From assembly GCA_027482195.1 (NCBI GenBank), contig JAIXWE010000053.1, forward strand, positions 3,308 through 67,307: a stretch of 64,000 nt of DNA. The letters run 5' to 3'. Under the pieces are notes generated by a model. It worked only from the letters and a program-made list of their open reading frames with translations. It did no database searches and was not told where the DNA came from. Below, piece by piece: positions 30,288 through 45,432 of this stretch (the stretch's first letter is position 1; each line of letters starts with the position of its first letter). Both the position numbers and the translations under genes were made by a program. Source of the stretch: Alphaproteobacteria bacterium. Lineage in GTDB: Bacteria; Pseudomonadota; Alphaproteobacteria; Micavibrionales; Micavibrionaceae.

Positions 30288-30301
30288 GTTACATTTCTTC
30301 A

Positions 30302-30316
30302 TGAAACTGTGTTTCA
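30302..30316. promoter_or_regulatory. Perfect 15-bp palindrome TGAAAC-TGT-GTTTCA (candidate operator)
   Basis: Read directly. The bottom strand reads CGTGAAACACAGTTTCA, so this site belongs to the CGTGAAA(C/T) motif family. Confidence 0.55.
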
Positions 30317-30326
30317 CGGTAATAAT

Positions 30327-30342
30327 ATTTTACGTGAAATTT
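30327..30342 (+). repeat. Left copy of a 16-bp perfect inverted repeat ATTTTACGTGAAATTT
   Basis: It is identical to the reverse complement of 45359-45374. Confidence 0.9.
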
Positions 30343-30349
30343 TTAAAAG

Positions 30350-30357
30350 CGTGAAAC
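30350..30357 (+). promoter_or_regulatory. CGTGAAAC motif copy upstream of ORF 30534
   Basis: AAAAGCGTGAAACAC, read directly. Confidence 0.45.
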
Positions 30358-30533
30358 ACAAAAAACATCAAAAAAAATAAAGTTTTATAATGGTTTTTAT
30401 GAGCTGAATAAGCCCGAGAAAGCTTCATTTTTTTCTTGCTCAAAATTCTACATTCAGTGAAAGCTCATATATATGTTAGACGCAGTTCACACTCATCACC
30501 TAATTAGTCCATAGAATTTAAGAAGGATTTCGC

Positions 30534-31550
30534 ATGGGGTTGCCAACCGGAATTATAAAACAAGATTGGGTTCGGCATTCTGCTCCACAATCCGATAATG
30601 TTTCTCTCCCTCCTAAAAAAGATGGTCAATTTTATATTTCGTCGAATGGTTCGATTTTTCGTCACTATAAACATGAAGATGATCGTTTAATTCTTGCTCC
30701 CGCAAATGTGATTGTACATGAAAAAAATAAAAGCGCGAATGATCGCAATAAGCGCGAAATGTTAGAGCGACTTCGTTTGCTGATTGAGATGCGTGATTTG
30801 GTCATGAATATATTACATCTTCAAGAAAAAACACCTGACGATTCTGTTTTGTCTCCGTGGCAAGATTTACAAAAAACTTTGAAAAAAAAGTATGGTATTT
30901 TTTTAGAAACTTTCGGCCCAATTTATAAAACGGAAAGTGATCATTCTTATCCAAACTTAAGAAAATTTCGTAAAGATCCTGATGGGCACCGTGTTGCTTC
31001 CTTGATTGAAAGTTGCGATGACTTAAAAAATCATACTGGCGTTGGTGATATTTTTAACCCGCGCGTTCTCGCACATAACAGTGATGGTCTTGCGTTGACG
31101 AGTCATCATCAAAGCCTAATAGAGATTCCTCAATCGAGGAATTTCTTAAAACCATGTTTTGTGTTATCAGAAGAAAATTTTTTCCCCTTCATGCGTCAAT
31201 TTTTCAAGCTTCATCCTTTGGCAAATCTTTTCGTCATTGATCAAGATCAATGGATTGATGATGGCGCGAAATTGTCAGTTGATGAAAAAATGGAACGCTT
31301 TGTAAATAAGGTTAATAATAATTCATGGGATGGCATTTTAATCATGCCAGTTCATTTTAAAAAGTTGGTCAAGCACAAGTATTTTGATCTCATGAATGTG
31401 GATCATTATTTCATCGATGAATCTATTCAGTCACATACAATTGATGCGGCCGCCAAGATTGACGAGAGTCTTATATCTAAATTTACGGTGCCGGAGAGTA
31501 AGAAGCCCCCGCGCGCGGCATGTTATGATCCACCATCTCTCGCGGCGTAG
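30534..31550 (+). CDS. Hypothetical protein, possibly a collapsed remnant of a mobile-element methylase/SNF2-type helicase fusion gene
   Basis: 338-aa ORF with colinear short blocks (EMRDLVMNILHLQE, LKKKYGIF, FRKDPDGHRVASLIE, GDIFNPR, WDGILIMPVHF, VDHYFIDESIQ). These recall the linker and DExH-box region of those large proteins. No Walker A and no methylase motifs are present. The 3' end overlaps the convergent gene by 68 nt. Confidence 0.4.
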   Translation: MGLPTGIIKQDWVRHSAPQSDNVSLPPKKDGQFYISSNGSIFRHYKHEDDRLILAPANVIVHEKNKSANDRNKREMLERLRLLIEMRDLVMNILHLQEKTPDDSVLSPWQDLQKTLKKKYGIFLETFGPIYKTESDHSYPNLRKFRKDPDGHRVASLIESCDDLKNHTGVGDIFNPRVLAHNSDGLALTSHHQSLIEIPQSRNFLKPCFVLSEENFFPFMRQFFKLHPLANLFVIDQDQWIDDGAKLSVDEKMERFVNKVNNNSWDGILIMPVHFKKLVKHKYFDLMNVDHYFIDESIQSHTIDAAAKIDESLISKFTVPESKKPPRAACYDPPSLAA

Positions 31551-32655
31551 CAAAAAACGGGTTAGTATCCTGTGTAGTTAAAATCGATCGATCAAATTCA
31601 CATGCATGGCCTTGTTGATCCGCAATAAATTGTAAAAGCTGACGTCTAAAACGATAACTGGTTCCATAGGCGATTTTTTCACAAACCTCTTCACCTAAAA
31701 TCTCTCGTGCCGCATTATATAATAGCGCGGCATCAGCTTCGTTATCATTACCACCTGAGAATTTGGGAGCGCGCTGCGTGTTATTGGCCAGATTAAAATC
31801 GCGTATCGCAAACAACATTGGCAATGCACGTGGTAAAAATCCGGTGTCCTTGGGAACAAAGTCATGATAGGGCGGCTTTGCCGCCGCACCGGTGGATGTT
31901 TTTGGCATATCCGTTCCGCATTCCAAACTCATGATAGTTGAATCATAAACGCTTCGGAAATAATCTGCGCCGTAAACAACATTGCGACTTGCATAGGCGT
32001 GCACCGAAACTTTTTGAATAGATTTCCATGTAAACTTTGTTTGCAAACGTGCCTCTTGTTCCGCCATCAAAATGCGGCGTACTTTTTCATGATCGCCGTC
32101 CATCCATGCTTCATAATTTATAACAGAATCGAAATCGACAGGATTGGAGACATCTTTCAATTTTTCCCAAGCATGAGCAATTTGTCGTTTTGCATCATCT
32201 GGATTCAAAAACCCGTGCGGATAACCTAAAACAACAGCAATACCAACATTCGGATAATCTTTTAAAAATTCAATAAGGGGGGTGATTTTATCCGTGTAGC
32301 CATTATCACCAAAATCTCCCCACGTACAGACGGCGCGCATCGGGAAAGGATACGTGGCCTCTCGCGCCATGCGTGTCATCCATTCTTTTGGTTCGTTGCG
32401 CGTGTTGCGTAATGTTGTGTGGTCTGTGCGCGCCAAAACCCACTCCATTCTTTCTGCAGTAATTTCAGGGTGAGAAAAATATTGCGCGTAATGATCTGCA
32501 ATTTGGCAAGATCTAAAATAAATCTCCCGCGCATGCTCACGTTGTGATGATAGGGAATCTTTGATGGAAAGACTTGTAAATACAGGAGAGGGGGCAATGG
32601 GGGGAGTGCTAGGTACAGATGATTTGAGCAACATGACAATCCCCACAACAGTCAA
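31483..32655 (-). CDS. Deoxyribose-phosphate aldolase (DeoC/DERA) family protein, divergent, with an N-terminal extension
   Basis: It is colinear with E. coli-type DeoC: TDHTTL (MDLTTL), GIAVVLGYPHGFLNPDD (IATVTNFPHGNDD), VDFDSVINY (VDVVFPY), MPKTSTG (FIKTSTG, Schiff-base Lys at 31900-31902), APKFSGG (GFKPAGG) and YRF. The track start is TTG, and the first in-frame ATG is at 32634. Confidence 0.6.
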   Translation of the reverse strand: MTVVGIVMLLKSSVPSTPPIAPSPVFTSLSIKDSLSSQREHAREIYFRSCQIADHYAQYFSHPEITAERMEWVLARTDHTTLRNTRNEPKEWMTRMAREATYPFPMRAVCTWGDFGDNGYTDKITPLIEFLKDYPNVGIAVVLGYPHGFLNPDDAKRQIAHAWEKLKDVSNPVDFDSVINYEAWMDGDHEKVRRILMAEQEARLQTKFTWKSIQKVSVHAYASRNVVYGADYFRSVYDSTIMSLECGTDMPKTSTGAAAKPPYHDFVPKDTGFLPRALPMLFAIRDFNLANNTQRAPKFSGGNDNEADAALLYNAAREILGEEVCEKIAYGTSYRFRRQLLQFIADQQGHACEFDRSILTTQDTNPFFATPREMVDHNMPRAGASYSPAP

Positions 32656-32715
32656 AAATTTATCCTAGCTTTAGCTAACAAATTCGTGATGTCTTTACAA
32701 GAAAACATTGGTTAA

Positions 32716-32744
32716 CGTGAAACAGTTTAAAGCGTGAAACAGTT
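32716..32744 (+). promoter_or_regulatory. Two perfect copies of CGTGAAACAGTT spaced 17 bp start to start, in the divergent promoter region
   Basis: The copies at 32716-32727 and 32733-32744 are identical 12-mers. They lie between the DERA-like gene (minus strand) and the giant-protein operon (plus strand). Confidence 0.6.
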
Positions 32745-32876
32745 CGGCTTTTCTTGAGTTTATCGCATCTAAAAGTTCGAAAAAAATCATCCCAATTTAT
32801 TTTGTTAGGTGATGCTAATTTAAGTTGACGGCTAAAGTTTTTTTGATTTAAAGGAGGACTATCAGAATATTTTAAT

Positions 32877-35561
32877 GTGTCACGCATCACCAAGAAAGTT
32901 ATAGAGATGGAAACACCTCTTGTAACCACGGCAAGCAAGTGGATAACAACGCAACCGCGTTATCCGGGTGATTTATTCCACAATTTCGATTTATATTATC
33001 CCAAACCTGATTACACGGATGACTATTGGAAGGCGCAACATATTAATGCGGAAACCATGGCGTCTTTTGAATCGCGCTCAAAATGGGCCTATATCAACCA
33101 AGCCATGTTTTATGCTTCTGCTTCAAGTGGGCGTGCGGCCTATGATATGGCACGGCGCTATCCTGAAAAAATATTGATCGGAAGTCGCAAATTTACAACA
33201 CCAGATGACGAACAATTTATGACGATTCAGTGTTTGAAATCAGCCCTTGATTCAAACGCACTGATGGGTCCTTTTGTATTAGCCCAAAATTACCGTGATA
33301 ATATGATTGCAGCAGGAATTGCTGCGCAAAATCTCACTGATCCACGCACGGGGGAGCGCAATGTTTATATTGTTGGGCCGCCGCATCGTGAAGCTTTTAT
33401 TCGCAGTTTGAAGCAATACCCGACATTATTGCGGGGTGCTGGTTACGAAGATGCAACATTCGAAATTCACTTCTGGGGGCCTTTTTGCACATTTGATGTG
33501 ACGCACGGCATTTATTCGGGGGATCATGCATGGTCGCGTAATGCTGCGATGGAAAAAGCTTCTGCGCTCGCTACTCAATATGGTGTTCCATTAATTTCAA
33601 TGTATCGCAGTGGTCGCGGATGTGCCGTTGTCGATATTTACAATCAATCTATCTCTCCGCTTGATCAAGCATGGGAAGATGCACGCCACATTGTTGATGT
33701 GGTTGGCCAGACTGTCCGGTTTAATGGCTCCGATTATTTCTTCCGTACTGAAGCAGCCGTCATGTTGTTGCTCACGCGCTTTTTATACGATGATTATGTG
33801 CGTAACGGAACGGGGGATCTTGTTCCAAGCTTAATGGATCCGGCGGTAAAGGCACATTATGCTTCGCCGGGTGAAATTGAAAAAATGGATATTTTGAAAC
33901 GCCATATGCTTCCCTATATGGCGAATTTTTGTAATTGGCCGACATTGCATCGCGCATTAAATAATGATCCTGCGTTAAAAGCTTACTGGGAAGAGAATGT
34001 TATTCCTCATTACGGGCAGATGGATAACAAAGCGGAAACGGAAGCAAAGATTCTAAGCTATCTTCCGCGCGGCGGTTGTGCTGATCAAGATTTGATGAAA
34101 AAAGTTTCTGAGTTGCGCGATCCGCGTAGCAAAAGTGTGTTTATGTCTTCATCAAATGAGAACGCACAATTTGCAAAACCGCCCATGTCACAAGGATTGC
34201 ATGAAGAAGCGTTTTCATCTGAATACGATCCGCTTATTTTTAATGACCGCAACTTTGCACGATTAAATGCAACATCAAATCCTAACCAAGATCCATCACC
34301 AACACATTACAGTTTTGAACAATCGGCAGCCATTATGGTTTTGGCGGGCTTTCGTAATAAAGGTTTGGTGCCTTTTGACGCGCCGCGGACATTATTATTT
34401 CTCGATGGTGCAAGCCAAGGTGAAATGCCTAAAAAATTCCGTGAAGATAAAGGCGTGTCTCATCCATCAGAAATGGGTGCAATATTTGATGTTTTATCAC
34501 GCGGTGGTGAAAACTTTGCCGAAAGTGTAGGTGAAGAAAATGCAGCAAATTTAAAAGATTTAACCCGGCGGATGATGTTTCATCCTTCTTTTGAGTTATG
34601 GCGCAAAAAACATGGTGTGGGTAATATTATTCCTGTATCTGATTTTTCGGCTGCTTTTGCCCAATTTGAAGGGCGGCGCGAAGCAACGAATACGGAAGTG
34701 CACGAAGCCATTGATGCGCGCGGGTCGATGAAAATAACTTCGGCCACGAGTGAGGCGACAGTGCGCCGTTATATTGCCGTCGAAGCACAGGGAATAGTTA
34801 TTCCGAGTGGCGATATTGATGAACGCAGCTATCGTTACATCACAGATGGTGTCTTGGCAACGATCGGTAAAACACCGCGCCCAAATTCTGGTGGTAAATA
34901 TCAATTCGAGTTTTTCTTGAAATCATCCGGTGATGATCAGATTAAAAAACTTGATTTGGCTGATTTGATTATCCTTGTTGGGCTTCAAGTTAAGTCTGAT
35001 TTAGAAAAAAAGACGCCGGCAAAACTAAAAGATCGTTATGTATCAATGGCGCGGCTACTCAATATCTATGAATATCTTATTGATCCTGCGCAACGGAATC
35101 AGGTTTACAAACGTGACTCATTATCTGGTGCAGATTCTCAGAAAAGCATAATTGATTGGAAGCAAGTTGATCCTGATTTTAGTGAATTTATAACCTATAC
35201 CCCCACTTTTGATATTTCTATTTTTGATAAAGATGAAGAATATCAAAAATTTTCAAATAATACATTGGACTTGCAAACATATTTATTTGATCCCGTGCAA
35301 AAATCAAAACTGGTTCAAATGATATGGGCATGGATGGTGGCTGCACCCATTAAGGTGCGAGAAATTGGTAAGGATATGCCAACACGTGGAAATTTATTAG
35401 CGCGGGCGATTAAGGATTTTGACGATCGTGATTTGATTGATCTGCCTAGTGAGTACCGCGACGCCAAGAAATGGTGGGAAGGCATGAACGCGCGGCAGCG
35501 TAAAGAGTTTTTTGAGCAAGGAACTATTCATTTACAAGGGCCCGCAGTTGATGTGCGTTAA
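32877..35561 (+). CDS. Hypothetical large protein (894 aa), first gene of the giant-protein operon
   Basis: Long uninterrupted ORF in which I recognise no catalytic or nucleotide-binding motif. The start is ambiguous: GTG at 32877, or ATG at 32907 preceded by a 9-codon mini-ORF. Confidence 0.6.
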   Translation: MSRITKKVIEMETPLVTTASKWITTQPRYPGDLFHNFDLYYPKPDYTDDYWKAQHINAETMASFESRSKWAYINQAMFYASASSGRAAYDMARRYPEKILIGSRKFTTPDDEQFMTIQCLKSALDSNALMGPFVLAQNYRDNMIAAGIAAQNLTDPRTGERNVYIVGPPHREAFIRSLKQYPTLLRGAGYEDATFEIHFWGPFCTFDVTHGIYSGDHAWSRNAAMEKASALATQYGVPLISMYRSGRGCAVVDIYNQSISPLDQAWEDARHIVDVVGQTVRFNGSDYFFRTEAAVMLLLTRFLYDDYVRNGTGDLVPSLMDPAVKAHYASPGEIEKMDILKRHMLPYMANFCNWPTLHRALNNDPALKAYWEENVIPHYGQMDNKAETEAKILSYLPRGGCADQDLMKKVSELRDPRSKSVFMSSSNENAQFAKPPMSQGLHEEAFSSEYDPLIFNDRNFARLNATSNPNQDPSPTHYSFEQSAAIMVLAGFRNKGLVPFDAPRTLLFLDGASQGEMPKKFREDKGVSHPSEMGAIFDVLSRGGENFAESVGEENAANLKDLTRRMMFHPSFELWRKKHGVGNIIPVSDFSAAFAQFEGRREATNTEVHEAIDARGSMKITSATSEATVRRYIAVEAQGIVIPSGDIDERSYRYITDGVLATIGKTPRPNSGGKYQFEFFLKSSGDDQIKKLDLADLIILVGLQVKSDLEKKTPAKLKDRYVSMARLLNIYEYLIDPAQRNQVYKRDSLSGADSQKSIIDWKQVDPDFSEFITYTPTFDISIFDKDEEYQKFSNNTLDLQTYLFDPVQKSKLVQMIWAWMVAAPIKVREIGKDMPTRGNLLARAIKDFDDRDLIDLPSEYRDAKKWWEGMNARQRKEFFEQGTIHLQGPAVDVR

Positions 35562-35585: not shown

Positions 35586-38500
35586 GTGATGGTTAAGTTT
35601 TCTGATGCACTGACAGAAAACTACTCACTTGATATGTGGTTGCGGCGTTTGGGGCTTTGGCGTCATAAGCCAATTGGTTTAATGACGATTGATGAACGAA
35701 AAGCATATCTTCATTCAAATGCCTTCTCAAAACCTCTTGTTTTAACGGGATCCTCTTACGACCCTGAAGGCTATCAGCTCATCAGCATGATGTCGCTTAC
35801 GCACTATGATCATGTAAGTGGTATTCTTGATGATAAAATTATTTATTGGCGACACACATTGGATGATGATGTTGATGAAGCAGGTAAAATTCCATTTCAG
35901 GATTATTTTGTTTTAGGGATACGCGGTGTCCGTGATGATCACCTAACGGGTGAGGGTGTTCCGGTTATTGTGCCGGATCAAATCTGGTGGAACGGGAATT
36001 TGGTCTTTAATGGTCCAGCAAATGGGGGGCGTCATGATCCGGAGCGCCCTGAACAACAACGTCAAATTAATCGCTATCTTGAGATGAGTCAGCAAGTTAA
36101 AGAGCATTTAAATAGAGGTTTGCCGCTTGAAAAAATTGGCCATGTGTTCTCACAAGATGTGTTGAGTGATCATTTCTCTGCGCGCGCTCTTGGGGGCGCG
36201 CCTTTCTTGCGTGGTTTAAGCTCATCAGGATGGGATAACGTGGAGCGGCTTCTTGGGGCAAATTTTGTTGACTTGTTTCAAAAAGAAGATCAGAGAATTT
36301 CATTTCGTCTTCCATCCTTACCTGAAATCTCTTCACTTGATCGCTTAAAAGCTCTTCATGGTTTTTATATCAACAGTGTGGAGCCAATACGCTGTTTAAG
36401 TGAGCAATGGGATAAATATGCCTCTGATATGCGCACGGGAATGGGTTATGTCACAGAAACGAATTACTTTTTTGATGAACAAAAGCAACGTCATATTTTT
36501 TCAGTGCGTATTGCCTCAGAAAATCCACCTAAGGATATGCCAAAATTTGAGCCATATGAATTAATACGCCTTGAATATACTCAGGGTGAGGATGTTTTTA
36601 CGCTGGAAGATTCATTCTTTATGGGTGTCAAAGATAAGAAATATCAAAAAAATAGTGATTTTTTAAGTCTTATTGGGGCTTTGCAAGATACAAATCAAGC
36701 CCTATCTGAGCGCATTTTTCCTGATTATCAATCTATTTTAATGCGCAATAAACTTCATAATCGTATTAGTGAATTTCGCATGCCGCCAAAATTATCAGAC
36801 GGGGGCGAGGCGTTGTGGATTCCATTATGGGGAACCAATATGCGCAAAACGATTGAAGAGTTTGGGGATGGTATTGGTGGTGGAAATTTATTTATGCATC
36901 GTGGGCGTGATGATGATAACCACCTTGATGAAATTGCCGTGCTACATGGCTTGCCGTATCAGCCGGGAAGCCCAGACTCGAATTATAAAGGTGCACAGCC
37001 GAGTTTAGTGCCTTATCTTGATGCCTTGCGCCGTGGTGCGATCATCATTGATCACATTCACTTTGATCACTCAACAATTGAGTTTTATGCGACACAAAAG
37101 GATCAAAGTGGTAACGGTTGGTTCAAAGGGCAAAAAATTATTTGTAAAGGTATAGATGCCTATATCATGAAAAATCGTCTTTTGCGCCTGGGTGTTAAGC
37201 AAGATCAGTGGCCAGAATTTATTGAATTTGATCGTGATGATGCGTTTGCGCGTTACCCCAATCTCTTTAAAGATAGAAACGGAAATTTTGCTTATCGCAT
37301 TCAAGATGAAAAAGGCAACACGCGCGGATGGAATCAGATTTGTAAAGATGGAACAAGCCATTCAGCGTTGACGGACTCTTACCTTATTACAATGTGTTAT
37401 AATAATAATTTACTTGATACCTATTATATCGATAGTGATGCGAACGGGCTTAACGACAACGGATGGAAATTTGCAGAAGACGGCCAATTTGCGCTTGAAG
37501 GCATTGATGGAATTACACGCGAAGATTTATTGAAAGCTGTTAAGTCAGAAGATAAATTATATATCTCACTAGAAGAGCCGACAGGAATTACGCGTACTGG
37601 GCGTTGTTCTACACCTGAGCAATTCAAAGATACATTCCGTGCATTAGAAAAAGCATTACCCGAAGGCTTTGCGCATGGCGTCATTCCTTTTTCAACCAAT
37701 CATTTGGAATATCAAGCTATTCGTGAAGTATGGGCCGAAAAAGATACGTTGCGGCATACGACAGCGGTTGGCGCCAACGCCCAATTGCGGGATACGGCAT
37801 TAAATATATATGGGGTCAATCCTAAACTTGATTTGCGCACAGTGACTATTGCGCATGATCATATTCCGCAATTAGTTTATGAGCTTTTATATGATGGCAT
37901 GATTGATTTCATGATAAAGGCTGAGAAAAAAGCGTTACGACAGTCAAAAAGAGAATACGAAAGCAGAACATTAGATGAGATTTTAAATGATGATGTGGTG
38001 TATCAAAAAGTAAAAGCAATTTTTGATACTCATAAAGATAATTTTGATCATGGCGTATCGCAACCGATTGAGTTTTATAATGGATTTTTGAATAACCAAG
38101 ACGGTGATTTAACAAAATTGATGCAATCATGGTTGCGCAAATATACCAAAGTATTTTGGGAAGGTGCAGATAAATTATCAACCGCATATAATGGAAATAC
38201 GTGCAATTTTATGCTGTCTAAACTAATAAGCAAAGGGATGGTCACATTTGACTCCCGTTGCGGTCACAATGATTACAATATGTATCAAGCCATTATGGTG
38301 AAGCAAGACCACGCTTCTGTTCACGGTGTGCGTACCGCAAAACGCACCAAAAGATTTAGAAATGACTATGGACAGCTTGGCTTTATTTCAACTGACCCAT
38401 TGGGGACTTCGGACAGTCGCTTCGGGTCAATGTCGCGTTTTGCAAATGGTGACTCACTCTTTGACTATGATGAATTTGTGCGTAACACAGGTTACAAGAT

Positions 38501-39335: not shown

Positions 39336-42300
39336 CAAGAACAATCAACGCATCGCACGTAAACGATTTTTATGGCCACAAGTCACGCGCGGTGAGTTAA
39401 TGAACTTGACGATTGATTTTGAAACAAGCGGTTTGGATCGCCAAAATGTCCCTTATGCAACAAAATCATACTCTTTTACTACAGAATATGGGGATGCTCT
39501 GACTGATTTTGCGGGAAACTATTTAAACTCGGCTCAAATTTTTCCGCGTCGTCCTGATTGGTTGGTTGCACAAACACCGGCATTGATCTTACAGCGTACA
39601 CCAACGGGGCCTGCGGATTTAGATGACGAATCTCGGATTCCTTATTCTCAAGCGTGGGCGGCAATTTCATGGCGTATTGAACAAGCTATGTTCGCCTATG
39701 ACCAATTTGGCCATCCGACGAACATTATTTCAATCGCTGACTATGATAAAAGTTTTAAGCACGGCCAAAAAGATGCTATTGAGACTGTCATTGATATTCC
39801 TCTTTTGGATGATAACGGGGAAATCGTTTATGACTTAAGATACCATCCTGAACGCCGCAAAATTTCATATCGAATTGATAGAGATCCGCAAAGCCCTTAT
39901 TACCGTGTCCCGCATAATATTTATTACAAAGACAAAGATGATAAATCGTTATGGAAATGGGTTGATCCAAGCTTATACGTTGATTTTTATAATGCTCGTT
40001 TTGATTTGCCGCATTTGCGGATGCAACTCTATCGCACCGGATCGGATCCCCAGGATACAACATTTTTATATGCACGCGGTACACCAAGCAACAAACAACG
40101 CAAGCGCGGCCATATTGTTGATGTCCGCCACGTGGCTTACGCTACGGCTCTTTACGGACCGCAAGGTGAGCAAGGCTTAAATCTTGGTCGCATTATTGAT
40201 GAACGTGGCCGTATAAGAAATTCCGAGGCCTTATCAGCCTATCTATCCTCGAATTCCAATTTTGAGAATCCAATGCGTTTGATAAAGCAAGGTATCTTTA
40301 TGCCAGATGGGTCTTTGCATGATCCTAATATGGATCATGGCGCAGCCTACGATGCCCTTGGTACGGTTGCATTACGTAACCATTGTTGGGATATTGCGCC
40401 GTGGGTGTGCGCCGAAGTGGTGCGTCAATCCGATGATAATGACCGCCGTCATTTTTTAATGCGCCAAGATCCGGTCCGTACGATCTTTCCGCTTTATACA
40501 TTGCCGCGCCGTCAAGAAGGCTTAAGTCACAGCGATCAACTTTATTGGTATTTGGGCAATGATAATGCGCTTGGAGATTTCAAGGATGACATTTTTCTGC
40601 GCGTGGACGGCAAATTAAGGCACGAGACATACAAAGAAAAATTATTGAAGGATTTATCTGTTGAAGAGTGGGTCGAATATCTTTCCTTAAAGGTCACGTC
40701 ATCAGATCCTGATCGCGCCGTAAGAATGGAATCGCATCGTTTGGCACCACCTGCTTTTGCTTTTGATGATGTTGTCAACTACACATCCCAGGGCGGTAAA
40801 TATAAATCGCGCTTTAAAGATTTATCGCAAGACATCAAATATATCACTGAGAACGAACAAATGCGGGAACGTATTTTCTCAGCTATCGCATTAAAAAATG
40901 AAGTGCGTCGCAAAAATGCACATGTGCCTCATGTCAAACTTTTAGAGGATGAATTGCCATCCCAATACTCTATCGAAGTAAGTTTTCAAGACGATGCACG
41001 ACGTGAGGAGCAGCGGCAGCAGTTTATAAAGTCGGGTTATAAAGGGCCAGAAATTCAGCCAGGCATTTTAGATACAATCAAAAATGCCATGGATAATGTC
41101 TATAAATTTCAACGTCAAATTGACTCGGCGTCTAGACGTTTATGCTTGAAGGCTCATCCAATTGACTTTTTTAAAGATTATGAACTCGATGATTTTGCTC
41201 ACATGCAGGATCCAGATATTGCCGCTGTTCTTCAAAATTATACTGATTTATGCGAACGTGTTTATAGCATTTATAAAAAGAAGGAGTCTTCTTATAAAGA
41301 CTTTCTTGATGAGATTGTAAATCCTGTGACTGGTGGATCTTTCTTTAAAAAGGGACGATTTAAAGCACAAACGGTTGGACAAGCATTTTATTTTCGCAAA
41401 GAGTTGATGCGCCGTGCCCTTAATGATTATGATATCTTACTATCCTATAAAGGTTCGGACACGCATAAAAAATCATATATTGAAGGAGTGGTTGATAAAA
41501 AAGTTTATTCCTTATCGCATCGCGGTAAGCAACTTTTTCTCTTTGCCGACCCAGATAATGGTGTTCAGGGATCACAGCCATTTTTAGTCGATGAATATGG
41601 CCGGAGATTGGAACTATCCTACATTAAGTCTATTTCTCCGCGTGATGCGATTAATCTGCTTGTAAATGAAAATAAATGGGAAATCCGTTTTTATCGTCTA
41701 AGATCAGATCCAACAATTTTAAGGCTGGCTCAGCGGGCGCTTGATCTAGACATGGGTAATATTATCCCGCCCGCTATTTTGCACATGTATCAGGCAGATA
41801 AAAGAAACCGCCATCTGATCCTTCCGAACGAGACACCAACAACGTCACGTATTCCGACATTACTCACAGACGAAATTGACATTACGCGGCTTGAAATTGC
41901 TGCATCCAGTCAATCGCCTTTGATTTTGGAGCGCGCAGAAGATTCTGCATTATCGGTTGCCGCGCGCCTGATCAAGCAAGATGAGTCATGGCGTATTTTA
42001 TCAAACTCACGTGCTTATAATACAGAAATGACATCTTCTGCCTTGAGTTGGCAGCCATGTTTATCTGCTGCTATGTTTGACCCTGTAAGTAATTTGCCTT
42101 ACGAGTTTATCGAGCATCTTATTCCGCGTGATAGCTCAAAAGATTTTGAGGATGATCCTAATATTATCATCATTGATGTTCCGGTATGGCATGCGCATTA
42201 CCCTATCGAGCAATATGACCCGCGTCTTCCTTTTCGCGGCCTGGTTATAGATGATATTCCAAAATATCAACGCGAACTTATCCGCGAGAATCGCCGCCAT

Positions 42301-43107
42301 GTTGTTATTCGTGTCAAAGAAACGGGGCAAATGTTTGCATGTGGGCGAACATCGCTTCATACCGTTCAATCAAATGATAAATCATTTTCAAGTATTCTTG
42401 AGAAGGCCAGTAATGATTACCTGCAATCCGGCCACAAACTTTCGGATAAAAAAAATCTTTTGTTTTTGGGAATTGAAAAACTATACCCGATAGCAAATAC
42501 CCGCCCGATTGATCAATCTTACCAGTCCTTATCACTTGCCAGCCCTCAATTTTATGGCCTTGTATCGCCGTGTTTTGCAAATTTACGGGACACATTTTTA
42601 ACAGCAGCTATTGTCCCATATGATTACGCATCACAACGTTTTATGAAGGGGGATCCTATCCACTTGCATGAAATGGAAGGACAAATTTTTGCGTCATCTA
42701 ATGGGCAGCGTAATCCCAACACAGGGCATATGTATGAATCTATCCTCGATGATATCAAGGGGGTTGACGAGAATGGTAATAAGCAAGGCATTACAATCGA
42801 GCAAATAATGCGCGACATTCGAAGTGGTGACTTGTCATCGGAATTTGTGAGAGCGGCCGGATTTTTAGGCCCTGATCATTTGGAGCAACATCTGCACGAT
42901 TGGACGGCGGCGCGTTTTAAATCAAATCCAGATCAGGAAAAATTTTTATTATGTTCCTTTGCACCGGTGAATGAGGTTTACCGTGAAACAGGAAGGGAGA
43001 AAGATAATAAATGGGTTTATTTTGATGGTCTTTCTGTACCAAGGGCGGCCATTTCGTGGGATGGGCAAATGCCACCACCTCAAAGTTATCGGCGGGTTTT
43101 TGTATAA
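39328..43107 (+). CDS. Giant protein (1259 aa) with an N-terminal exonuclease I (SbcB)-like DEDDh 3'-5' exonuclease domain
   Basis: Exo I motif IDFETSGLD (39412-39438), Exo II FYNARFDLPHL (39985-40017) and Exo III HGAAYDALGTVAL (40336-40374). The start overlaps the upstream stop by 8 nt (ATGTTTGA). About 900 C-terminal residues have no motif I recognise. Confidence 0.6.
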   Translation: MFDKNNQRIARKRFLWPQVTRGELMNLTIDFETSGLDRQNVPYATKSYSFTTEYGDALTDFAGNYLNSAQIFPRRPDWLVAQTPALILQRTPTGPADLDDESRIPYSQAWAAISWRIEQAMFAYDQFGHPTNIISIADYDKSFKHGQKDAIETVIDIPLLDDNGEIVYDLRYHPERRKISYRIDRDPQSPYYRVPHNIYYKDKDDKSLWKWVDPSLYVDFYNARFDLPHLRMQLYRTGSDPQDTTFLYARGTPSNKQRKRGHIVDVRHVAYATALYGPQGEQGLNLGRIIDERGRIRNSEALSAYLSSNSNFENPMRLIKQGIFMPDGSLHDPNMDHGAAYDALGTVALRNHCWDIAPWVCAEVVRQSDDNDRRHFLMRQDPVRTIFPLYTLPRRQEGLSHSDQLYWYLGNDNALGDFKDDIFLRVDGKLRHETYKEKLLKDLSVEEWVEYLSLKVTSSDPDRAVRMESHRLAPPAFAFDDVVNYTSQGGKYKSRFKDLSQDIKYITENEQMRERIFSAIALKNEVRRKNAHVPHVKLLEDELPSQYSIEVSFQDDARREEQRQQFIKSGYKGPEIQPGILDTIKNAMDNVYKFQRQIDSASRRLCLKAHPIDFFKDYELDDFAHMQDPDIAAVLQNYTDLCERVYSIYKKKESSYKDFLDEIVNPVTGGSFFKKGRFKAQTVGQAFYFRKELMRRALNDYDILLSYKGSDTHKKSYIEGVVDKKVYSLSHRGKQLFLFADPDNGVQGSQPFLVDEYGRRLELSYIKSISPRDAINLLVNENKWEIRFYRLRSDPTILRLAQRALDLDMGNIIPPAILHMYQADKRNRHLILPNETPTTSRIPTLLTDEIDITRLEIAASSQSPLILERAEDSALSVAARLIKQDESWRILSNSRAYNTEMTSSALSWQPCLSAAMFDPVSNLPYEFIEHLIPRDSSKDFEDDPNIIIIDVPVWHAHYPIEQYDPRLPFRGLVIDDIPKYQRELIRENRRHVVIRVKETGQMFACGRTSLHTVQSNDKSFSSILEKASNDYLQSGHKLSDKKNLLFLGIEKLYPIANTRPIDQSYQSLSLASPQFYGLVSPCFANLRDTFLTAAIVPYDYASQRFMKGDPIHLHEMEGQIFASSNGQRNPNTGHMYESILDDIKGVDENGNKQGITIEQIMRDIRSGDLSSEFVRAAGFLGPDHLEQHLHDWTAARFKSNPDQEKFLLCSFAPVNEVYRETGREKDNKWVYFDGLSVPRAAISWDGQMPPPQSYRRVFV

Positions 43108-43402
43108 TCTATTTCCGTTTTACTTTTTCAGTTTGTAATTTACCTGCATCATAATTGGGGTAGCGTAAATTTTTTTTCAGCCAATAATTAAAAAGTGTAA
43201 ACGCGTTTTTAGAGCGTTTTTAATTTTTGGAAATGAAAATCACGGATTTTCGCCAAAAAGCAAGTCCCCCTGATTAAGGTCTTGGTTAAGGCGTTGTAAA
43301 TATTGATTATAATTTATCTCAAATTCAAAATAGTTTCCATAATGTTTACGTTGATTTAACCTCCAGTGACTATCCTTAGAATCGTTCTGGGGAGAATAGA
43401 CA

Positions 43403-44455
43403 ATGGCCTTGTATCGGCAAGAAACAGGAAAATTCAAAATTGACGAGCGCGAGATCGATGCGACGTTACGTGGTGACGTTTTGCCATTACACACCGCGCC
43501 ATCATTGTCTCAAGATGAAGACGAAGCAATAGAAAATGAGGCAGGTTTTGGTGAGGGTCATACCCGTACGCGTGCCGCGTTATCAGAGTTTACAAATGCT
43601 GATCCGTTAAATGCCGCCGGTGCAGCGGAGAAATTGCGCCGCGATATTAACAGCCCACTTAACATCGGTGGTGGTGGCGGTGCGCTTTACACCGAAGATA
43701 AAAATCCATGGGGTCAAAACAAAGACGAGAAAAAAGACGACGTTGCCCAAAACGCCATGGGGGATATGGTTGAGCAAGCGCAAGAAAGTTTAAAGCGCGA
43801 TCGTGAGGTCATGCAACGCCAACGTGAAGAGCAATGGGCGAACATGATGAACGATGAATACGGCATCAACCTGACACCGGGGCAGTGGAAGCGCGTTGAA
43901 GATATCATGTCGGACGATTCCAAGCGCAAAAAACACTTTGATGATTTGCAAAAGAAAAATGGGTGGACAGACAAACAACGCGACGAAGCCGAAAAGGCAG
44001 CGATGGAGATTATTCGCCTCAAACAACTTTATGCCCAAGGGAAGATTTCCGAAGATGAACTTAAAAAACGCATGGGCGATCTCAAAGCCGAAAACCCAAC
44101 AGCTTTTAAAGATGCAGGAAAATCTGTTGAAGCAATCAGCGAATTTGATAGTAAGGATGCCAGTACAAAAATTACTGATGCAAGCGCACAATCGCGCGTG
44201 AAACAAACCGATGATGTTCAGGTTGCACGTGTTGAACAGAAAGCAGAGGTGAAAGCGTTACCATCCGGAACCCCGCAGTCCCAAAGTGATGTATCATTTG
44301 GGCGGGCACAATTTCCAACCGCTCCAAACGCGACGAATGATTTTAGCGCGGTGAATAATCCACAACCTGCAAAAGTTGAGACAGCACCAGCGGCACAACC
44401 AAACCCGGTACAGATAGCGAGCATTGAGCGCAAATTTGACGCCGTCGCGTTGTAA
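43403..44455 (+). CDS. Hypothetical highly charged protein (350 aa)
   Basis: GGGGAG lies 8 nt upstream of the ATG. The centre is rich in Lys/Glu/Asp/Gln helical sequence and the tail is Pro/Ala/Gln-rich. I recognise no motif. Confidence 0.5.
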   Translation: MALYRQETGKFKIDEREIDATLRGDVLPLHTAPSLSQDEDEAIENEAGFGEGHTRTRAALSEFTNADPLNAAGAAEKLRRDINSPLNIGGGGGALYTEDKNPWGQNKDEKKDDVAQNAMGDMVEQAQESLKRDREVMQRQREEQWANMMNDEYGINLTPGQWKRVEDIMSDDSKRKKHFDDLQKKNGWTDKQRDEAEKAAMEIIRLKQLYAQGKISEDELKKRMGDLKAENPTAFKDAGKSVEAISEFDSKDASTKITDASAQSRVKQTDDVQVARVEQKAEVKALPSGTPQSQSDVSFGRAQFPTAPNATNDFSAVNNPQPAKVETAPAAQPNPVQIASIERKFDAVAL

Positions 44456-44472
44456 AATCAAAGATTATAAAA

Positions 44473-45291
44473 TCAGGGATTAAGAGCCGCCAAGGTGGTG
44501 GGGGCTGATGATGTGCTCGCCGCCGCAACTTGTGGTCCTTTATAAAAAACGCTTGCAAGTTCAGTCGGGCGCGTTGCGGATGTTGTCGCCATAGTGCGCG
44601 TTACACCATCGCCATCAACAAAATGAATCCCCCCCTGACGGGTTGGCAAAGCATTCGGGCTATAACCAAAAATAAGGCGTGGGCCATAACGCTCACCGCC
44701 CTTTTCGGGGACTAATGTATCAGCCACAATCGCAACGCGATACCCGGCGGCATAACGTTTGGGAAGGCTTTCATCATTAACAGCCGCGCTTCCGAACGTA
44801 TCACGTGCCAATGCCGCGCGTGAAACGGCCGGGTCAATGCCGGTTAAGGCGGCTTGAGGAATGCGGTCAGATCCAGGGCCCGAAGTTGGGAAAACTTTGA
44901 TATTCGCCATAGTGATACCAACACAGGCCTTTGTCGGGGCGGATATAAAATCATACCCCACACCATTTTTTATGCCGCGTGACGCGGGCAATGTGCCATC
45001 GGCGTTGGGTTGAATTTTAAGGGGTGAATTAAAAGCAACGACATAGCCGCGTGAGCCGTTTGCGTTTGAATAAAAAATTTGACCGTCTTCGCCAATATTT
45101 TGTTGGTTGCCCATATAAATAGGAGCCATTTTTTCAGCACCTAGCTCGGTGCGCAATTGCGCGATTTCCGCATCACCATTGTAGCATTTTTCTTCCACTG
45201 CCGCATTTACCGCGGTTGCACCTGCGCAGATGGCAAACGCGAAGGCGGCTGCTGTTTTTGCGGTTTTCAAAGCTAAAGATGTGCGTGTCAT
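44473..45291 (-). CDS. Hypothetical secreted protein
   Basis: From the internal Met there is a clear signal peptide (MTRTSLALKTAKTAAAFAFAICAGATAVNA). I recognise no motif. The ORF extends to 45360. Confidence 0.5.
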   Translation of the reverse strand: MTRTSLALKTAKTAAAFAFAICAGATAVNAAVEEKCYNGDAEIAQLRTELGAEKMAPIYMGNQQNIGEDGQIFYSNANGSRGYVVAFNSPLKIQPNADGTLPASRGIKNGVGYDFISAPTKACVGITMANIKVFPTSGPGSDRIPQAALTGIDPAVSRAALARDTFGSAAVNDESLPKRYAAGYRVAIVADTLVPEKGGERYGPRLIFGYSPNALPTRQGGIHFVDGDGVTRTMATTSATRPTELASVFYKGPQVAAASTSSAPTTLAALNP

Positions 45292-45358
45292 GGCAATCAC
45301 CAATTTGTTTTTGTTTCTTGAATGCTTAAGACTATATATCAAAACACCCCGTCTTGGC

Positions 45359-45374
45359 AAATTTCACGTAAAAT
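45359..45374 (-). repeat. Right copy of the 16-bp perfect inverted repeat (AAATTTCACGTAAAAT on the plus strand)
   Basis: It is the reverse complement of 30327-30342. It lies 68-83 nt upstream of the ATG at 45291 and 59 nt from the tRNA-Ser 3' end. Confidence 0.9.
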
Positions 45375-45432
45375 GCGGGTTTGCGTCCGGCAAGGCGGCA
45401 CACTCAGGTAACGGGGGCGGGGGCTAAGCAAA

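What the first reader, a model, noticed from the sequence alone, without database searches (positions are those of the whole stretch)
30288..45432. 15-kb accessory block of unknown-function genes abutting the 3' end of tRNA-Ser(UGA)
Every gene left of 30287 and right of 45433 is a recognisable core gene. The seven ORFs in between are not.
- The 3' end of the tRNA faces the block, which is the classical geometry of tRNA-targeted islands.
- Spot G+C counts suggest lower GC inside the block. Lines starting at 36601 and 41281 give 18/60 and 22/60. Flanking lines starting at 2941 and 13021 give 29/60 and 33/60. This is a handful of lines, not a systematic measurement.
- Against a recent mobile origin, I see no integrase, transposase or tRNA-fragment direct repeat.
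- ORF 30534 looks like the wreck of a conjugative-element or phage gene.
Together these suggest an old, domesticated insertion that kept a specific cargo.
Basis: partly seen in the sequence, partly recalled or inferred. Interest (0 to 1): 0.8.

Follow-up and report, generated by a model that had tools for sequence, protein, structure and literature searches.

The report
Rare nuclease cassette beside tRNA-Ser
The 15-kb block is a real accessory region built around a rare, apparently undescribed gene cassette: two giant nucleic-acid-degrading enzymes, a partner protein of unknown fold, a sugar-cleaving aldolase and the stump of a phage-type helicase. It most likely destroys DNA such as invading DNA, but this has not been tested.

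Summary
tRNA-Ser(UGA) at 45433-45522 (minus strand) points its 3' end at seven ORFs that match no Pfam, NCBIfam or PADLOC model above threshold. There is no integrase and no tRNA-fragment repeat.

The block is not one unit. Positions 30.3-43.1 kb hold a conserved cassette:
- O1: a 338-aa stump of a ~1460-aa DarB-type SWI2/SNF2 helicase.
- O2: a DERA-like class I aldolase.
- O3: 884 aa, confident model, no structural match.
- O4: a 1249-aa RNase J-like beta-CASP nuclease.
- O5: a 1259-aa Exonuclease I-like DEDDh exonuclease.

O6 and O7 are orphans with host-like composition.

The cassette has lower GC3 than the rest of the window (0.36 vs 0.43, p=8e-4). It recurs in about 14 loci of uncultured, partly Micavibrio-like Alphaproteobacteria, always between different housekeeping genes. 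It lies within 2.5 kb of a tRNA gene in 6 of 14 loci. It is missing from a syntenic HK-RR...tRNA-Ser-MltB locus.

O3-O4-O5 is the invariant core. O4 and O5 overlap by 8 nt and are fused into one 2503-aa protein elsewhere.

Best reading: an eroded tRNA-linked island carrying an uncharacterised dual-polarity nuclease machine, probably directed at foreign DNA. Function is inferred, not shown.

The parts
30288..30533 (.). Left boundary / upstream region of O1, with the palindrome TGTTTCACG-N31-CGTGAAACA (30308-30360)
   Evidence: CGTGAAAC occurs 8 times in the window (2.8 expected), 7 of them inside the block.
30534..31550 (+). O1: 338-aa remnant of a ~1460-aa DarB-type SWI2/SNF2 helicase. The ATPase core is lost.
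   Evidence: PHROG 10089 'DarB-like antirestriction', 7.7e-9. tblastn of the intact helicase L012:3998-8386 matches only its residues 41-221. Weak hits to DEAD/DEAH helicases of conjugative Rhizobiales plasmids. Lowest GC3 in the window, 0.327.
31483..32655 (-). O2: DERA/DeoC-like class I aldolase (TIM barrel), divergent from O3
   Evidence: The family profile hits deoxyribose-phosphate aldolases in PDB at 5e-14. The KTSTG Schiff-base lysine, the Asp and the second Lys are conserved in 7 of 8 homologues. The TIGR00126 score is far below cut-off.
32656..32906 (.). Divergent O2/O3 intergenic region with two direct CGTGAAACAGTT copies (32716-32740)
   Evidence: The motif is not conserved in the same region of other loci.
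32877..35561 (+). O3: 884-894 aa protein of unknown fold, first gene of the invariant triad (database start 32907)
   Evidence: 23 homologues, none with Pfam. AF2 pLDDT 86, pTM 0.86. No Foldseek match at E<0.001 in PDB or BFVD. Homologues precede O4-like genes in the distant loci L095, L096 and L098 (hhalign 99.4, 98.1 and 96.5%).
35586..39335 (+). O4: 1249-aa RNase J-like beta-CASP metallo-beta-lactamase nuclease with a ~430-aa N-terminal domain of unknown function (database start 35589)
   Evidence: Invariant H490-x-H492-x-D494-H495. Sub-threshold Lactamase_B_2 hits in 4 of 8 members. hhalign 100% (E 9e-105, full length) to a wider family, of whose 31 scanned members 19 hit Lactamase_B_2 and 12 hit RNase_J_b_CASP.
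39328..43107 (+). O5: 1259-aa Exonuclease I (SbcB)-like DEDDh 3'-5' exonuclease with a ~550-aa unmatched C-terminal half. It overlaps O4 by 8 nt (ATGTTTGA).
   Evidence: D30, E32, D226, H337 and D342 are invariant. AF2 pLDDT 81. Foldseek top hits are E. coli ExoI 1fxx at 1.6e-8 (prob 1.0, TMt 0.61) and 4hcb. hhalign to SbcB gives E 0.008. Junction sequence. O4-O5 fusion P0106.
43403..44455 (+). O6: 350-aa low-complexity orphan, not part of the cassette
   Evidence: No homologue in any cassette locus. GC 0.48 and GC3 0.44, host-like. Only a weak SHOCT hit.
44473..45360 (-). O7: ~272-295 aa orphan with a signal-peptide-like N-terminus, not part of the cassette. AAATTTCACGTAAAAT lies upstream (45359-45374).
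   Evidence: Best promoter-like site at 45360-45331.
45433..45522 (-). tRNA-Ser(UGA), right boundary. Its 3' end faces the block.
   Evidence: ARAGORN. Rfam RF00005, 60.6 bits.

Best explanation
The block is the eroded remnant of a tRNA-linked genomic island.

**Shown**
- Its cargo (30.3-43.1 kb) is a conserved cassette found in a few uncultured, partly Micavibrio-like Alphaproteobacteria.
- The invariant core is the triad O3-O4-O5:
  - O3 is a protein of unknown fold.
  - O4 is a giant RNase J-type beta-CASP nuclease.
  - O5 is a giant Exonuclease I-type DEDDh exonuclease.
- The O4 and O5 genes are translationally coupled here. Elsewhere they are fused into one protein.
- In one subclade the triad is joined by a divergently transcribed DERA-like aldolase (O2) and a DarB-type SWI2/SNF2 ATPase.
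- In this genome the ATPase is reduced to a 338-aa stump (O1).
- O6 and O7 are unrelated lineage-specific genes lying between the cassette and the tRNA.

**Inferred**
- O3, O4 and O5 form one complex that degrades DNA from both ends. O4 would cut and digest 5'->3'. O5 would digest the 3'-ended single strand processively.
- The SWI2/SNF2 motor, where present, would translocate on DNA and feed it to the nucleases.
- The aldolase would act on deoxyribose-phosphate or abasic-type products through a Schiff-base lysine.
- The most likely biological role is destruction of foreign (phage or plasmid) DNA, that is, an undescribed defence-like system.
- Here it probably runs in the helicase-less mode seen in several relatives, or it is decaying.

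**Confidence.** The figure of 0.45 is for the whole statement including the defence role. The anatomy alone (an accessory cassette of these enzyme types with O3-O4-O5 as its core) I hold at about 0.85.
For: **Enzyme assignments**
- O2.
- O4.
- O5.
- Helicase. Background on DarB-type SWI2/SNF2 ATPases of phages and conjugative elements: PMC5512222.

**Cassette conservation.** The order helicase/O2(-)/O3/O4/O5 is kept in L001-L006, L009 and L012.

**Triad as core**
- It occurs alone in L010, where ClpB is the upstream gene.
- It occurs at ~20% identity in L095, L096 and L098.

**Physical coupling of O4 and O5**
- 8-nt overlap ATGTTTGA.
- Similar overlaps or 0-3-nt gaps between the two genes in L001, L002, L004 and L005 (28 nt in L003).
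- The 2503-aa fusion P0106.

**Accessory nature**
- GC3 0.36 vs 0.43.
- Extreme rarity of the families.
- A different housekeeping context at every locus.
- Absence from the syntenic locus L072.

**tRNA link.** 6 of 14 loci have a tRNA within 2.5 kb (P about 1e-4 to 1e-3). Counting the three tRNA-Asn loci once gives 4 of 12 (P 0.005-0.02).

**DNA rather than RNA.** ExoI is a ssDNA exonuclease. DERA chemistry is deoxyribose-specific. DarB-type ATPases are dsDNA translocases (established knowledge; PMC5512222).
Against: - No PADLOC model matches any of the five proteins except a weak DrmD hit on the ATPase motif.
- None of the ~14 loci lies in a recognisable defence island. Neighbours are housekeeping genes.
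- No copy was found in plasmids, in viral contigs (IMG/VR) or in JGI metagenome contigs with the O5 patterns.
- There is no methyltransferase or other obvious self/non-self discriminator.
- No integrase or att repeat is present at any locus.
- The loci are so divergent (20-46% identity) that different contexts could also come from genome rearrangement after vertical descent.
- RNase J enzymes are classically RNases.
- The helicase is dead here, so the system may be non-functional in this genome.
- Nothing has been tested experimentally.
Confidence: 0.45

Rival explanations
1. Nutritional nucleic-acid catabolism or salvage. In predatory or host-dependent Alphaproteobacteria the nucleases would reduce acquired DNA to mononucleotides. 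The DERA-like enzyme would channel deoxyribose-5-phosphate into central metabolism.
For: Two loci come from Micavibrio-type MAGs (taxonomy). O2 keeps the full DERA catalytic triad. Two processive exonucleases of opposite polarity would yield mononucleotides. All genomic neighbours are housekeeping or metabolic genes.
Against: - None of O2-O5 has a signal peptide (reading), although prey DNA is outside the cell.
- A metabolic route would not need 1250-aa nucleases, a DarB-type SWI2/SNF2 ATPase or an unknown 890-aa partner.
- The cassette is far too rare to be a general predatory trait.
- O2 scores far below the DeoC equivalog cut-off and is missing from the distant triads.
Confidence: 0.17
2. 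A DNA repair or end-processing machine (resection, crosslink repair or abasic-site repair) that is a lineage-specific chromosomal trait rather than a conflict system.
For: Beta-CASP nucleases include DNA-repair enzymes such as SNM1/Artemis, and ExoI acts in mismatch repair and recombination (established knowledge). A Schiff-base lysine enzyme could act as an AP or dRP lyase. One neighbour in L001 is a UDG and one in L096 is an Ogt-type DNA_binding_1 protein.
Against: No alphaproteobacterial LexA box (GTTC-N7-GTTC) occurs in any O2/O3 intergenic region. Distribution is patchy and composition atypical. The helicase is of the phage / conjugative-element type. The helicase and O2 have been lost repeatedly.
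Confidence: 0.13
3. An RNA-degradosome-like complex. It would combine an RNase J-type 5'-3' RNase, a DEDDh 3'-5' RNase, an SF2 helicase and a moonlighting metabolic enzyme, by analogy with degradosomes that carry enolase, PFK or aconitase.
For: The O4 relatives hit the RNase J beta-CASP model specifically. Many DEDDh enzymes are RNases: Orn and REXO2 appear among the lower Foldseek hits. The component list parallels the Bacillus degradosome (established knowledge).
Against: The O5 fold match is specifically to the three-domain ssDNA exonuclease ExoI, at E 1.6e-8 against 0.1 or worse for RNases. The ATPase is SWI2/SNF2 DarB-type, not DEAD-box. The aldolase is deoxyribose-type.
Confidence: 0.08
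4. Not an insertion at all. The seven genes would be ancestral lineage-specific genes, the low GC3 would reflect low expression of very long genes, and the tRNA proximity would be coincidence or old shared synteny.
For: There are no mobility genes or att repeats. No close relative genome exists for comparison: all proteins are singleton clusters at 90% identity. Three of the six tRNA-adjacent loci share tRNA-Asn. One flank window has equal tetranucleotide deviation.
Against: The cassette is absent from the syntenic HK-RR...tRNA-Ser-MltB locus of L063/L072. Four different tRNA species are involved. The families are orders of magnitude rarer than their host clade. The GC3 shift stops exactly at the cassette boundary, since O6 and O7 are host-like.
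Confidence: 0.12

Closest known systems
Ribonuclease J / beta-CASP metallo-beta-lactamase nucleases
   Same: O4 keeps the HxHxDH zinc motif. It is homologous over its full length to a family whose members hit Pfam RNase_J_b_CASP and Lactamase_B models and carry RNase J-like motifs (TGTQGE, IPGNE, HxxGH).
   Different: O4 is about twice the size and has a conserved ~430-aa N-terminal domain of unknown function. It does not itself reach any Pfam threshold. It is always paired with an ExoI-like gene. The substrate is probably DNA (inferred).
E. coli Exonuclease I (SbcB), DEDDh family
   Same: All five DEDDh catalytic residues are invariant. The AF2 model matches the whole three-domain ExoI structure (1fxx, E 1.6e-8, TMt 0.61).
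   Different: O5 has large insertions in the exonuclease domain and ~550 extra C-terminal residues with no structural match. It has no Pfam RNase_T or ExoI-C hit. It is translationally coupled or fused to a beta-CASP nuclease.
Deoxyribose-phosphate aldolase (DeoC/DERA)
   Same: O2 has the TIM-barrel profile match (5e-14) and the Asp / Schiff-base Lys (KTSTG) / second Lys triad.
   Different: O2 has ~390 aa against ~250, with N- and C-terminal extensions. It scores 20 bits against the 117-bit equivalog cut-off. It is encoded with nucleases, not in a deo operon.
DarB-type SWI2/SNF2 ATPase of phage and conjugative-element polyvalent proteins (PMC5512222)
   Same: The intact cassette helicase aligns over ~80% of its length with 'DarB-like antirestriction' proteins of Ralstonia and other phages (E 1e-38 to 1e-48). 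O1 hits PHROG 10089.
   Different: It is a stand-alone ~1460-aa protein with no methyltransferase partner. It is chromosomal, not virion-associated or plasmid-borne. In the window only the N-terminal ~200 residues survive.
tRNA-linked genomic islands
   Same: The tRNA 3' end faces the block. Composition is atypical, occurrence is patchy, and tRNA proximity recurs in other genomes.
   Different: No integrase and no direct repeat of the tRNA 3' end at any locus. 2.3 kb of host-like genes separate the cassette from the tRNA.
Helicase-nuclease anti-phage systems (for example DISARM, Druantia, Hachiman, Gabija)
   Same: The logic is the same: an SF2 motor plus nucleases in a rare, patchily distributed cassette. 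There is a weak DrmD match at the ATPase motif.
   Different: No component matches any PADLOC model. The gene content differs. It is not located in defence islands. Defence activity is untested.

Membership tests
tRNA-targeted integrative genomic island | Lies next to the 3' end of a tRNA gene | tested here: met
   The tRNA-Ser 3' end is at 45433, 73 nt from the O7 start and 2326 nt from the O5 stop. 6 of 14 cassette loci have a tRNA within 2.5 kb.
tRNA-targeted integrative genomic island | Encodes a tyrosine or serine integrase | tested here: not met
   No integrase hit in Pfam, NCBIfam or PHROGs for any ORF of the block. None is listed in the gene tables of the loci from the look-up of encoding contigs. 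L006-L010 were not scanned for integrases.
tRNA-targeted integrative genomic island | Direct repeat of the tRNA 3' segment at the far boundary (attL/attR) | tested here: not met
   No tRNA-derived match of 13 nt or more anywhere in the window. None in L008 or L006.
tRNA-targeted integrative genomic island | Atypical composition and variable presence among relatives | tested here: met
   GC3 0.36 vs 0.43, p=8e-4. Absent from syntenic L063/L072. No close relatives exist for a finer test.
RNase J / beta-CASP MBL nuclease (O4) | HxHxDH metal-binding motif | tested here: met
   H490, H492, D494 and H495 are invariant in 9 sequences.
RNase J / beta-CASP MBL nuclease (O4) | Passes a curated MBL or beta-CASP profile | tested here: inconclusive
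   O4 itself has no hit. Family members have sub-threshold Lactamase_B_2 hits. The distant homologue P0093 passes RNase_J_b_CASP at 30.6 bits against a cut-off of 27. The link is by hhalign, 100%.
RNase J / beta-CASP MBL nuclease (O4) | 5'-3' exo- and endonuclease activity | not testable with these tools
   Needs biochemistry.
Exonuclease I (SbcB) / DEDDh (O5) | DEDDh catalytic residues in Exo I-III motifs | tested here: met
   D30, E32, D226, H337 and D342 are invariant in 17 sequences.
Exonuclease I (SbcB) / DEDDh (O5) | Three-domain ExoI fold (exonuclease, SH3-like, helical) | tested here: met
   Foldseek 1fxx E 1.6e-8, prob 1.0, TMt 0.61, and 4hcb 1.6e-7. The hhalign alignment runs through ExoI residues 93-354.
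Exonuclease I (SbcB) / DEDDh (O5) | Passes curated sequence profiles (RNase_T, Exonuc_X-T_C) | tested here: not met
   No Pfam hit in any of 17 members even at E<=5.
Deoxyribose-phosphate aldolase (O2) | Catalytic Asp, Schiff-base Lys and second Lys | tested here: met
   DxDSV, KTSTG and KFSGG are conserved in 7 of 8 homologues, including the window.
Deoxyribose-phosphate aldolase (O2) | Equivalog-level score (TIGR00126) | tested here: not met
   20.3 bits against a cut-off of 117.3. O2 is DERA-like, not DeoC.
DarB-type SWI2/SNF2 helicase (O1) | Intact ATPase core (ResIII/SNF2 and Helicase_C) | tested here: not met
   Only residues 41-221 of the 1462-aa protein are recognisable in the window. 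The intact copy has ResIII at 482-594.
Known anti-phage defence systems (PADLOC v2) | Component proteins match system models | tested here: not met
   No hits for O1-O7. The only hit for an intact cassette is DrmD at 8e-4 on the ATPase motif.
Known anti-phage defence systems (PADLOC v2) | Protects against phage or plasmid | not testable with these tools
   Needs experiments.

The most novel reading that the evidence does not exclude
The O3-O4-O5 triad would be a previously undescribed multi-subunit DNA-destroying machine of bacteria. It would combine a beta-CASP 5'-3' nuclease, an ExoI-type 3'-5' exonuclease and a subunit of a new fold. It would act as a new type of immune system. In one subclade it would have recruited a phage-derived SWI2/SNF2 motor and a DERA-like aldolase that chemically processes the deoxyribose of the destroyed DNA. 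That enzymatic step is not known from any defence system.
Probability: 0.3. Interest if true: 0.8.

Novelty: new variant of a known kind. Interest (0 to 1): 0.62.

Why it matters
If the reading is right, four things follow.
- It adds an unrecognised helicase-nuclease cassette to the catalogue of bacterial conflict and DNA-processing systems. The cassette is invisible to Pfam, NCBIfam and PADLOC.
- It supplies a confidently modelled 890-aa protein with no structural relative.
- It shows how giant derivatives of two housekeeping nucleases (RNase J and ExoI) can be welded into one machine. The gene fusion is evidence for this.
- It puts forward an aldolase as a possible new kind of partner for nucleases.

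For genome annotation, it turns seven 'hypothetical proteins' into a defined, searchable cassette. It also documents an island that has lost its mobility genes and is now losing its motor protein.

Tried and rejected
- Routine profile searches (Pfam, NCBIfam, PADLOC, PHROGs) on the seven ORFs gave almost nothing.
- Single-sequence and profile searches of O3, O4 and O5 against PDB sequences gave nothing.
- The full 17-sequence alignment was too divergent for the genome scan.
- The O5 patterns found no relatives in viral or JGI metagenome contigs, or in plasmids.
- The first representative search failed because the profile exceeded 1200 positions.
- I looked for att-like tRNA repeats in the window, L008 and L006 and found none.
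- The 16-nt perfect inverted repeat that brackets the block (30327 / 45359) could have been a terminal inverted repeat. I rejected it as evidence because about 3 such pairs are expected by chance in 64 kb.
- I tested for a shared operator or an alphaproteobacterial LexA or CtrA box in O2/O3 intergenic regions across loci and found none.
- I tested whether O3, O4 and O5 are paralogous to each other. They are not.
- I looked for housekeeping orthologues shared between the window and cassette loci to calibrate divergence. None was usable.
- Exact look-ups show the genome has no relative at 90% identity or above. A fine-scale presence/absence comparison was therefore impossible.
- Literature searches for DUF8437 and for a beta-CASP + ExoI + helicase system found no description.

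Full report
**1. Observation**

ARAGORN and Rfam place a single tRNA in the window: tRNA-Ser (anticodon tga) at 45433-45522 on the minus strand. Its 3' end therefore faces leftwards into the block.

Seven ORFs lie between the YkuD L,D-transpeptidase gene (29781-30287) and the tRNA:

| ORF | Coordinates | Strand | Length |
|---|---|---|---|
| O1 | 30534-31550 | + | 338 aa |
| O2 | 31483-32655 | - | 390 aa |
| O3 | 32877-35561 | + | 894 aa (884 from the database start 32907) |
| O4 | 35586-39335 | + | 1249 aa |
| O5 | 39328-43107 | + | 1259 aa |
| O6 | 43403-44455 | + | 350 aa |
| O7 | 44473-45360 | - | 295 aa |

None reaches a curated threshold in Pfam, NCBIfam or PADLOC. The only notable hit is PHROG 10089, 'DarB-like antirestriction', for O1 at 7.7e-9.

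Measured systematically, the composition signal is real but modest, and it is confined to part of the block.
- GC is 0.425 in the block against 0.456 in the flanks. The lowest-GC 15-kb window of the whole 64 kb starts at 29001.
- GC3 of O1-O5 is 0.33-0.385, against a mean of 0.433 (sd 0.048) for the 42 other long ORFs in the GC3 list, O6 and O7 excluded (Mann-Whitney p=8e-4).
- O6 and O7 have host-like GC3 of 0.44.
- Tetranucleotide deviation peaks at 35-42.5 kb but is matched by one flank window.

No tRNA-derived repeat of 13 nt or more exists anywhere in the window.

**2. The block is composite; its core is a conserved cassette**

O5 has only 17 relatives among 5.8 billion protein clusters. 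All are 1250-1380 aa and none has Pfam domains. O4 has 8 relatives and O3 has 23.

I fetched the contigs that encode these relatives, and five loci from GTDB genomes. The GTDB records are titled 'uncultured Micavibrio sp.', 'Pseudobdellovibrionaceae bacterium' and 'Alphaproteobacteria bacterium'. NCBI files Micavibrio under Pseudobdellovibrionaceae.

The same gene order recurs: a ~1400-1480-aa helicase, then an O2 homologue on the opposite strand, then O3, O4 and O5 homologues. In L001 the helicase instead follows O5.

O6 and O7 have no homologue in any of these loci. The cassette therefore ends at about 43.1 kb. It is separated from the tRNA by 2.3 kb of host-like sequence.

**3. What the genes are**

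*O1.* It aligns only to residues 41-221 of the intact 1462-aa helicase of L012. The ResIII/SNF2 ATPase core (residues ~480-600 onwards) is gone.
- The intact protein aligns over about 80% of its length with 'DarB-like antirestriction' proteins of Ralstonia and other phages (E 1e-38 to 1e-48). In phage Cimandef this is a 4545-aa polyvalent protein encoded next to a virion structural-protein gene.
- O1 also hits DEAD/DEAH helicases in the accessory regions of conjugative Rhizobiales plasmids.
- These ATPases belong to the SWI2/SNF2 clade, are thought to translocate on dsDNA, and are normally paired with an adenine methylase (PMC5512222). No methylase is present here.

*O2.* A profile of eight homologues hits deoxyribose-phosphate aldolases in PDB at 5e-14.
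- The catalytic Asp, the Schiff-base Lys (KTSTG) and the second Lys (KFSGG) are kept in 7 of 8 sequences. The eighth has lost all three together.
- It scores far below the DeoC equivalog cut-off. It is DERA-like, not DeoC.

*O4.* The motif H490-x-H492-x-D494-H495 is invariant. Four of eight members give sub-threshold Lactamase_B_2 hits.
- A profile search of 1.84 billion representatives finds only 86 proteins.
- Of the 31 more distant ones scanned, 19 hit Lactamase_B_2 and 12 hit RNase_J_b_CASP. P0093 scores above the gathering threshold.
- Their consensus carries motifs that I recognise as RNase J-like: ITHxHLDH, TGTQGE, IPGNE and HxxGH (my reading).
- hhalign links the two sets over the full length, including the ~430-aa N-terminal domain (100%, E 9e-105).

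*O5.* The DEDDh residues D30, E32, D226, H337 and D342 are invariant.
- The AF2 model of residues 1-1200 has pLDDT 81 and pTM 0.76.
- Its top structural matches are E. coli Exonuclease I: 1fxx at E 1.6e-8 (probability 1.0, TM 0.61 on the target) and 4hcb. All other exonucleases score 0.03 or worse.
- hhalign against SbcB agrees weakly (E 0.008).
- The C-terminal ~550 residues are well modelled but match nothing.

*O3.* The AF2 model is confident (pLDDT 86, pTM 0.86). It has no Foldseek match at E<0.001 in PDB or BFVD. Three insignificant BFVD hits to XRN exonucleases are noted only as a lead.

O3, O4 and O5 are not related to each other.

**4. The invariant core and its coupling**

The helicase and O2 are dispensable.
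- L008 also has only an N-terminal helicase stump, and it lacks O2.
- L010 has ClpB where the helicase would be.

The triad O3-O4-O5 persists at about 20% identity in three distant loci.
- L095: O3-like 738 aa (hhalign 99.4%), O4-like P0093, and an O5-like ORF at 13509-16874.
- L098: proteins of 807, 1180 and 1207 aa (hhalign 96.5% and 99.8%).
- L096/L097: the O3-like gene (98.1%) is followed by a single 2503-aa protein. Its N-terminal half is O4-like and its C-terminal half is O5-like (99.7%).

In the window O4 and O5 overlap by 8 nt (ATGTTTGA). The two genes also overlap or lie within 3 nt of each other in L001, L002, L004 and L005; in L003 they are 28 nt apart. Fusion plus translational coupling is standard evidence that two proteins act together.

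**5. Accessory and tRNA-linked?**

Every locus has different neighbours, all housekeeping:
- cysDN and purL
- argG
- an RND efflux pump
- fatty-acid oxidation genes
- glmUS
- pyrD-like

No locus has an integrase.

A metagenomic relative, L063/L072, keeps the window's synteny. Its histidine kinase is 45% identical and its response regulator 56% identical, and these are followed by tRNA-Ser(tga)-MltB-RlpA-DacC-Tmk. Between them it carries an acyl-CoA dehydrogenase, a CorC-type transporter and a Fic/DOC gene instead of the cassette.

A tRNA gene lies within 2.5 kb of the cassette in 6 of 14 independent loci:

| Locus | tRNA |
|---|---|
| window | Ser-tga |
| L001 | Val |
| L006 | Asn |
| L007 | Ser-gct |
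| L008 | Asn |
| L096 | Asn |

In five of the six (all but L006) the tRNA 3' end faces the cassette.

Under a uniform tRNA density of one per 50-80 kb this has P of about 1e-4 to 1e-3. Counting the three tRNA-Asn loci once gives 4 of 12, P 0.005-0.02.

However, no att repeat is detectable, and the loci are too divergent to exclude old shared synteny.

All 15 window proteins found by exact look-up are singleton clusters at 90% identity. Only the MltB sequence has a near-identical partner, on a 2-kb contig. No close relative genome is available for a decisive presence/absence test.

**6. Mechanism**

Shown:
- the enzyme superfamilies
- the conserved order
- the coupling and fusion of O4 and O5
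- the rarity of the families
- the compositional offset
- the tRNA proximity
- the decay of the helicase in this genome

Inferred:
- O3-O4-O5 is one complex.
- It attacks DNA from both polarities. O4 would work as a beta-CASP endo/5'-3' nuclease and O5 as a processive ExoI-type 3'-5' ssDNA exonuclease.
- The SWI2/SNF2 motor, where present, delivers or exposes the substrate.
- O2 uses its Schiff-base lysine on deoxyribose-phosphate or abasic-type products.

DNA is favoured over RNA for three reasons. The O5 fold match is specific to ExoI. O2 has DERA-type chemistry. The ATPase is of the DarB type.

The most likely role is destruction of foreign DNA, in the manner of a defence system. This rests on analogy only. 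Against it:
- there are no PADLOC matches;
- the cassette does not sit in a defence island;
- there is no self/non-self discriminator;
- there are no plasmid or phage copies.

The rivals are nutritional DNA catabolism in predatory hosts, a DNA-repair machine, an RNA-degradosome-like complex, and a native non-inserted locus. They are listed with their tests in the rival explanations.

In this genome the cassette either works in the helicase-less mode seen in L010, L095, L096 and L098, or it is on its way to decay. O1 has the lowest GC3 in the window.

**7. Comparison, novelty and verdict**

Each assignable component is a highly divergent member, or a relative, of a known superfamily: RNase J/beta-CASP, ExoI/DEDDh, DERA, and DarB-type SWI2/SNF2. 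Several fail the curated family thresholds (see the membership table).

The combination matches no system in PADLOC. I found no paper describing it. O3 has no structural relative in the libraries available.

I rate it a new variant of a known kind: a helicase-nuclease accessory cassette on an eroded tRNA-linked island.

Interest is moderate to high. The cassette is rare, coherent and experimentally tractable, but its function is unproven.

**8. Seen in passing**

The octamer CGTGAAAC is concentrated in the block: 7 of its 8 window copies, against 2.8 expected for the whole window.
- It forms a palindrome upstream of O1.
- It forms a tandem pair in the O2/O3 intergenic region.
- A related site lies upstream of O7.
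- It is not conserved at other loci.

It may be a host-specific operator that ties O7 to the cassette. A 16-nt perfect inverted repeat brackets the block, but the number of such pairs is at chance level.

Noticed in passing
window 30308-30360, 32716-32740, 45359-45374 (also 42982, 44197, 44819): The octamer CGTGAAAC occurs 8 times in the window (2.8 expected; 2 of 100 shuffles reach 8), 7 of them inside the block. It forms a palindrome upstream of O1 and a tandem pair in the O2/O3 divergent intergenic region. A related TTTCACGT site lies just upstream of the best promoter-like site of O7. It is not conserved in the equivalent regions of other loci. It may be a host-specific operator.
   Followed up: partly
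window 30327-30342 and 45359-45374: A perfect 16-nt inverted repeat (ATTTTACGTGAAATTT / AAATTTCACGTAAAAT) brackets the whole 15-kb block. About 3 such pairs are expected by chance in 64 kb and 4 are seen, so only its position is suggestive.
   Followed up: yes
L096:5942-13453 (= L097:3507-11018), protein P0106: A 2503-aa protein is a natural fusion of an O4-like beta-CASP nuclease and an O5-like ExoI-type exonuclease. It is preceded by an O3-like gene and a 150-aa ORF.
   Followed up: yes
L004:1678-2910 (minus strand): This O2 homologue has lost all three DERA catalytic residues at once (D->H, K->R, K->H). The rest of the cassette is intact.
   Followed up: no
L008:2746-3498: A second, independent-looking truncation of the helicase to its N-terminal ~250 residues, in a locus that also lacks O2. 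The N-terminal domain may be retained for a reason, or 3' deletions may simply be common.
   Followed up: partly
L095:9495-9923, L096:5493-5945: Distant triads carry a conserved-position small ORF (142-150 aa, no Pfam) between the O3-like and O4-like genes. It is absent from the window's cassette.
   Followed up: no
L072:6718-7824: In the syntenic relative the gene nearest tRNA-Ser, about 1.1 kb from it, on the side where the window has the block is a Fic/DOC (DUF4172-Fic) protein. This suggests the site is a variable spot in this lineage.
   Followed up: no
O3 model m322d22d1853f (window 32907-35561): Three insignificant BFVD hits (E 0.8-3.6) are to XRN 5'-3' exonucleases of giant viruses. 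There is no such hit in the 50 PDB hits listed. This is a lead only.
   Followed up: no
whole window: All 15 proteins found by exact look-up, core genes included, are singleton clusters at 90% identity in a 15-billion-protein collection. Only MltB has a near-identical partner, on a 2-kb contig. The source genome (a 77.6-kb NCBI contig) belongs to a very poorly sampled lineage.
   Followed up: partly
L006:15145-15219, L008:1813-1887, L096:2419-2493: tRNA-Asn(gtt) sits next to the cassette in three loci, including one of the distant fused-type loci. This could be either a preferred insertion site or old synteny.
   Followed up: partly
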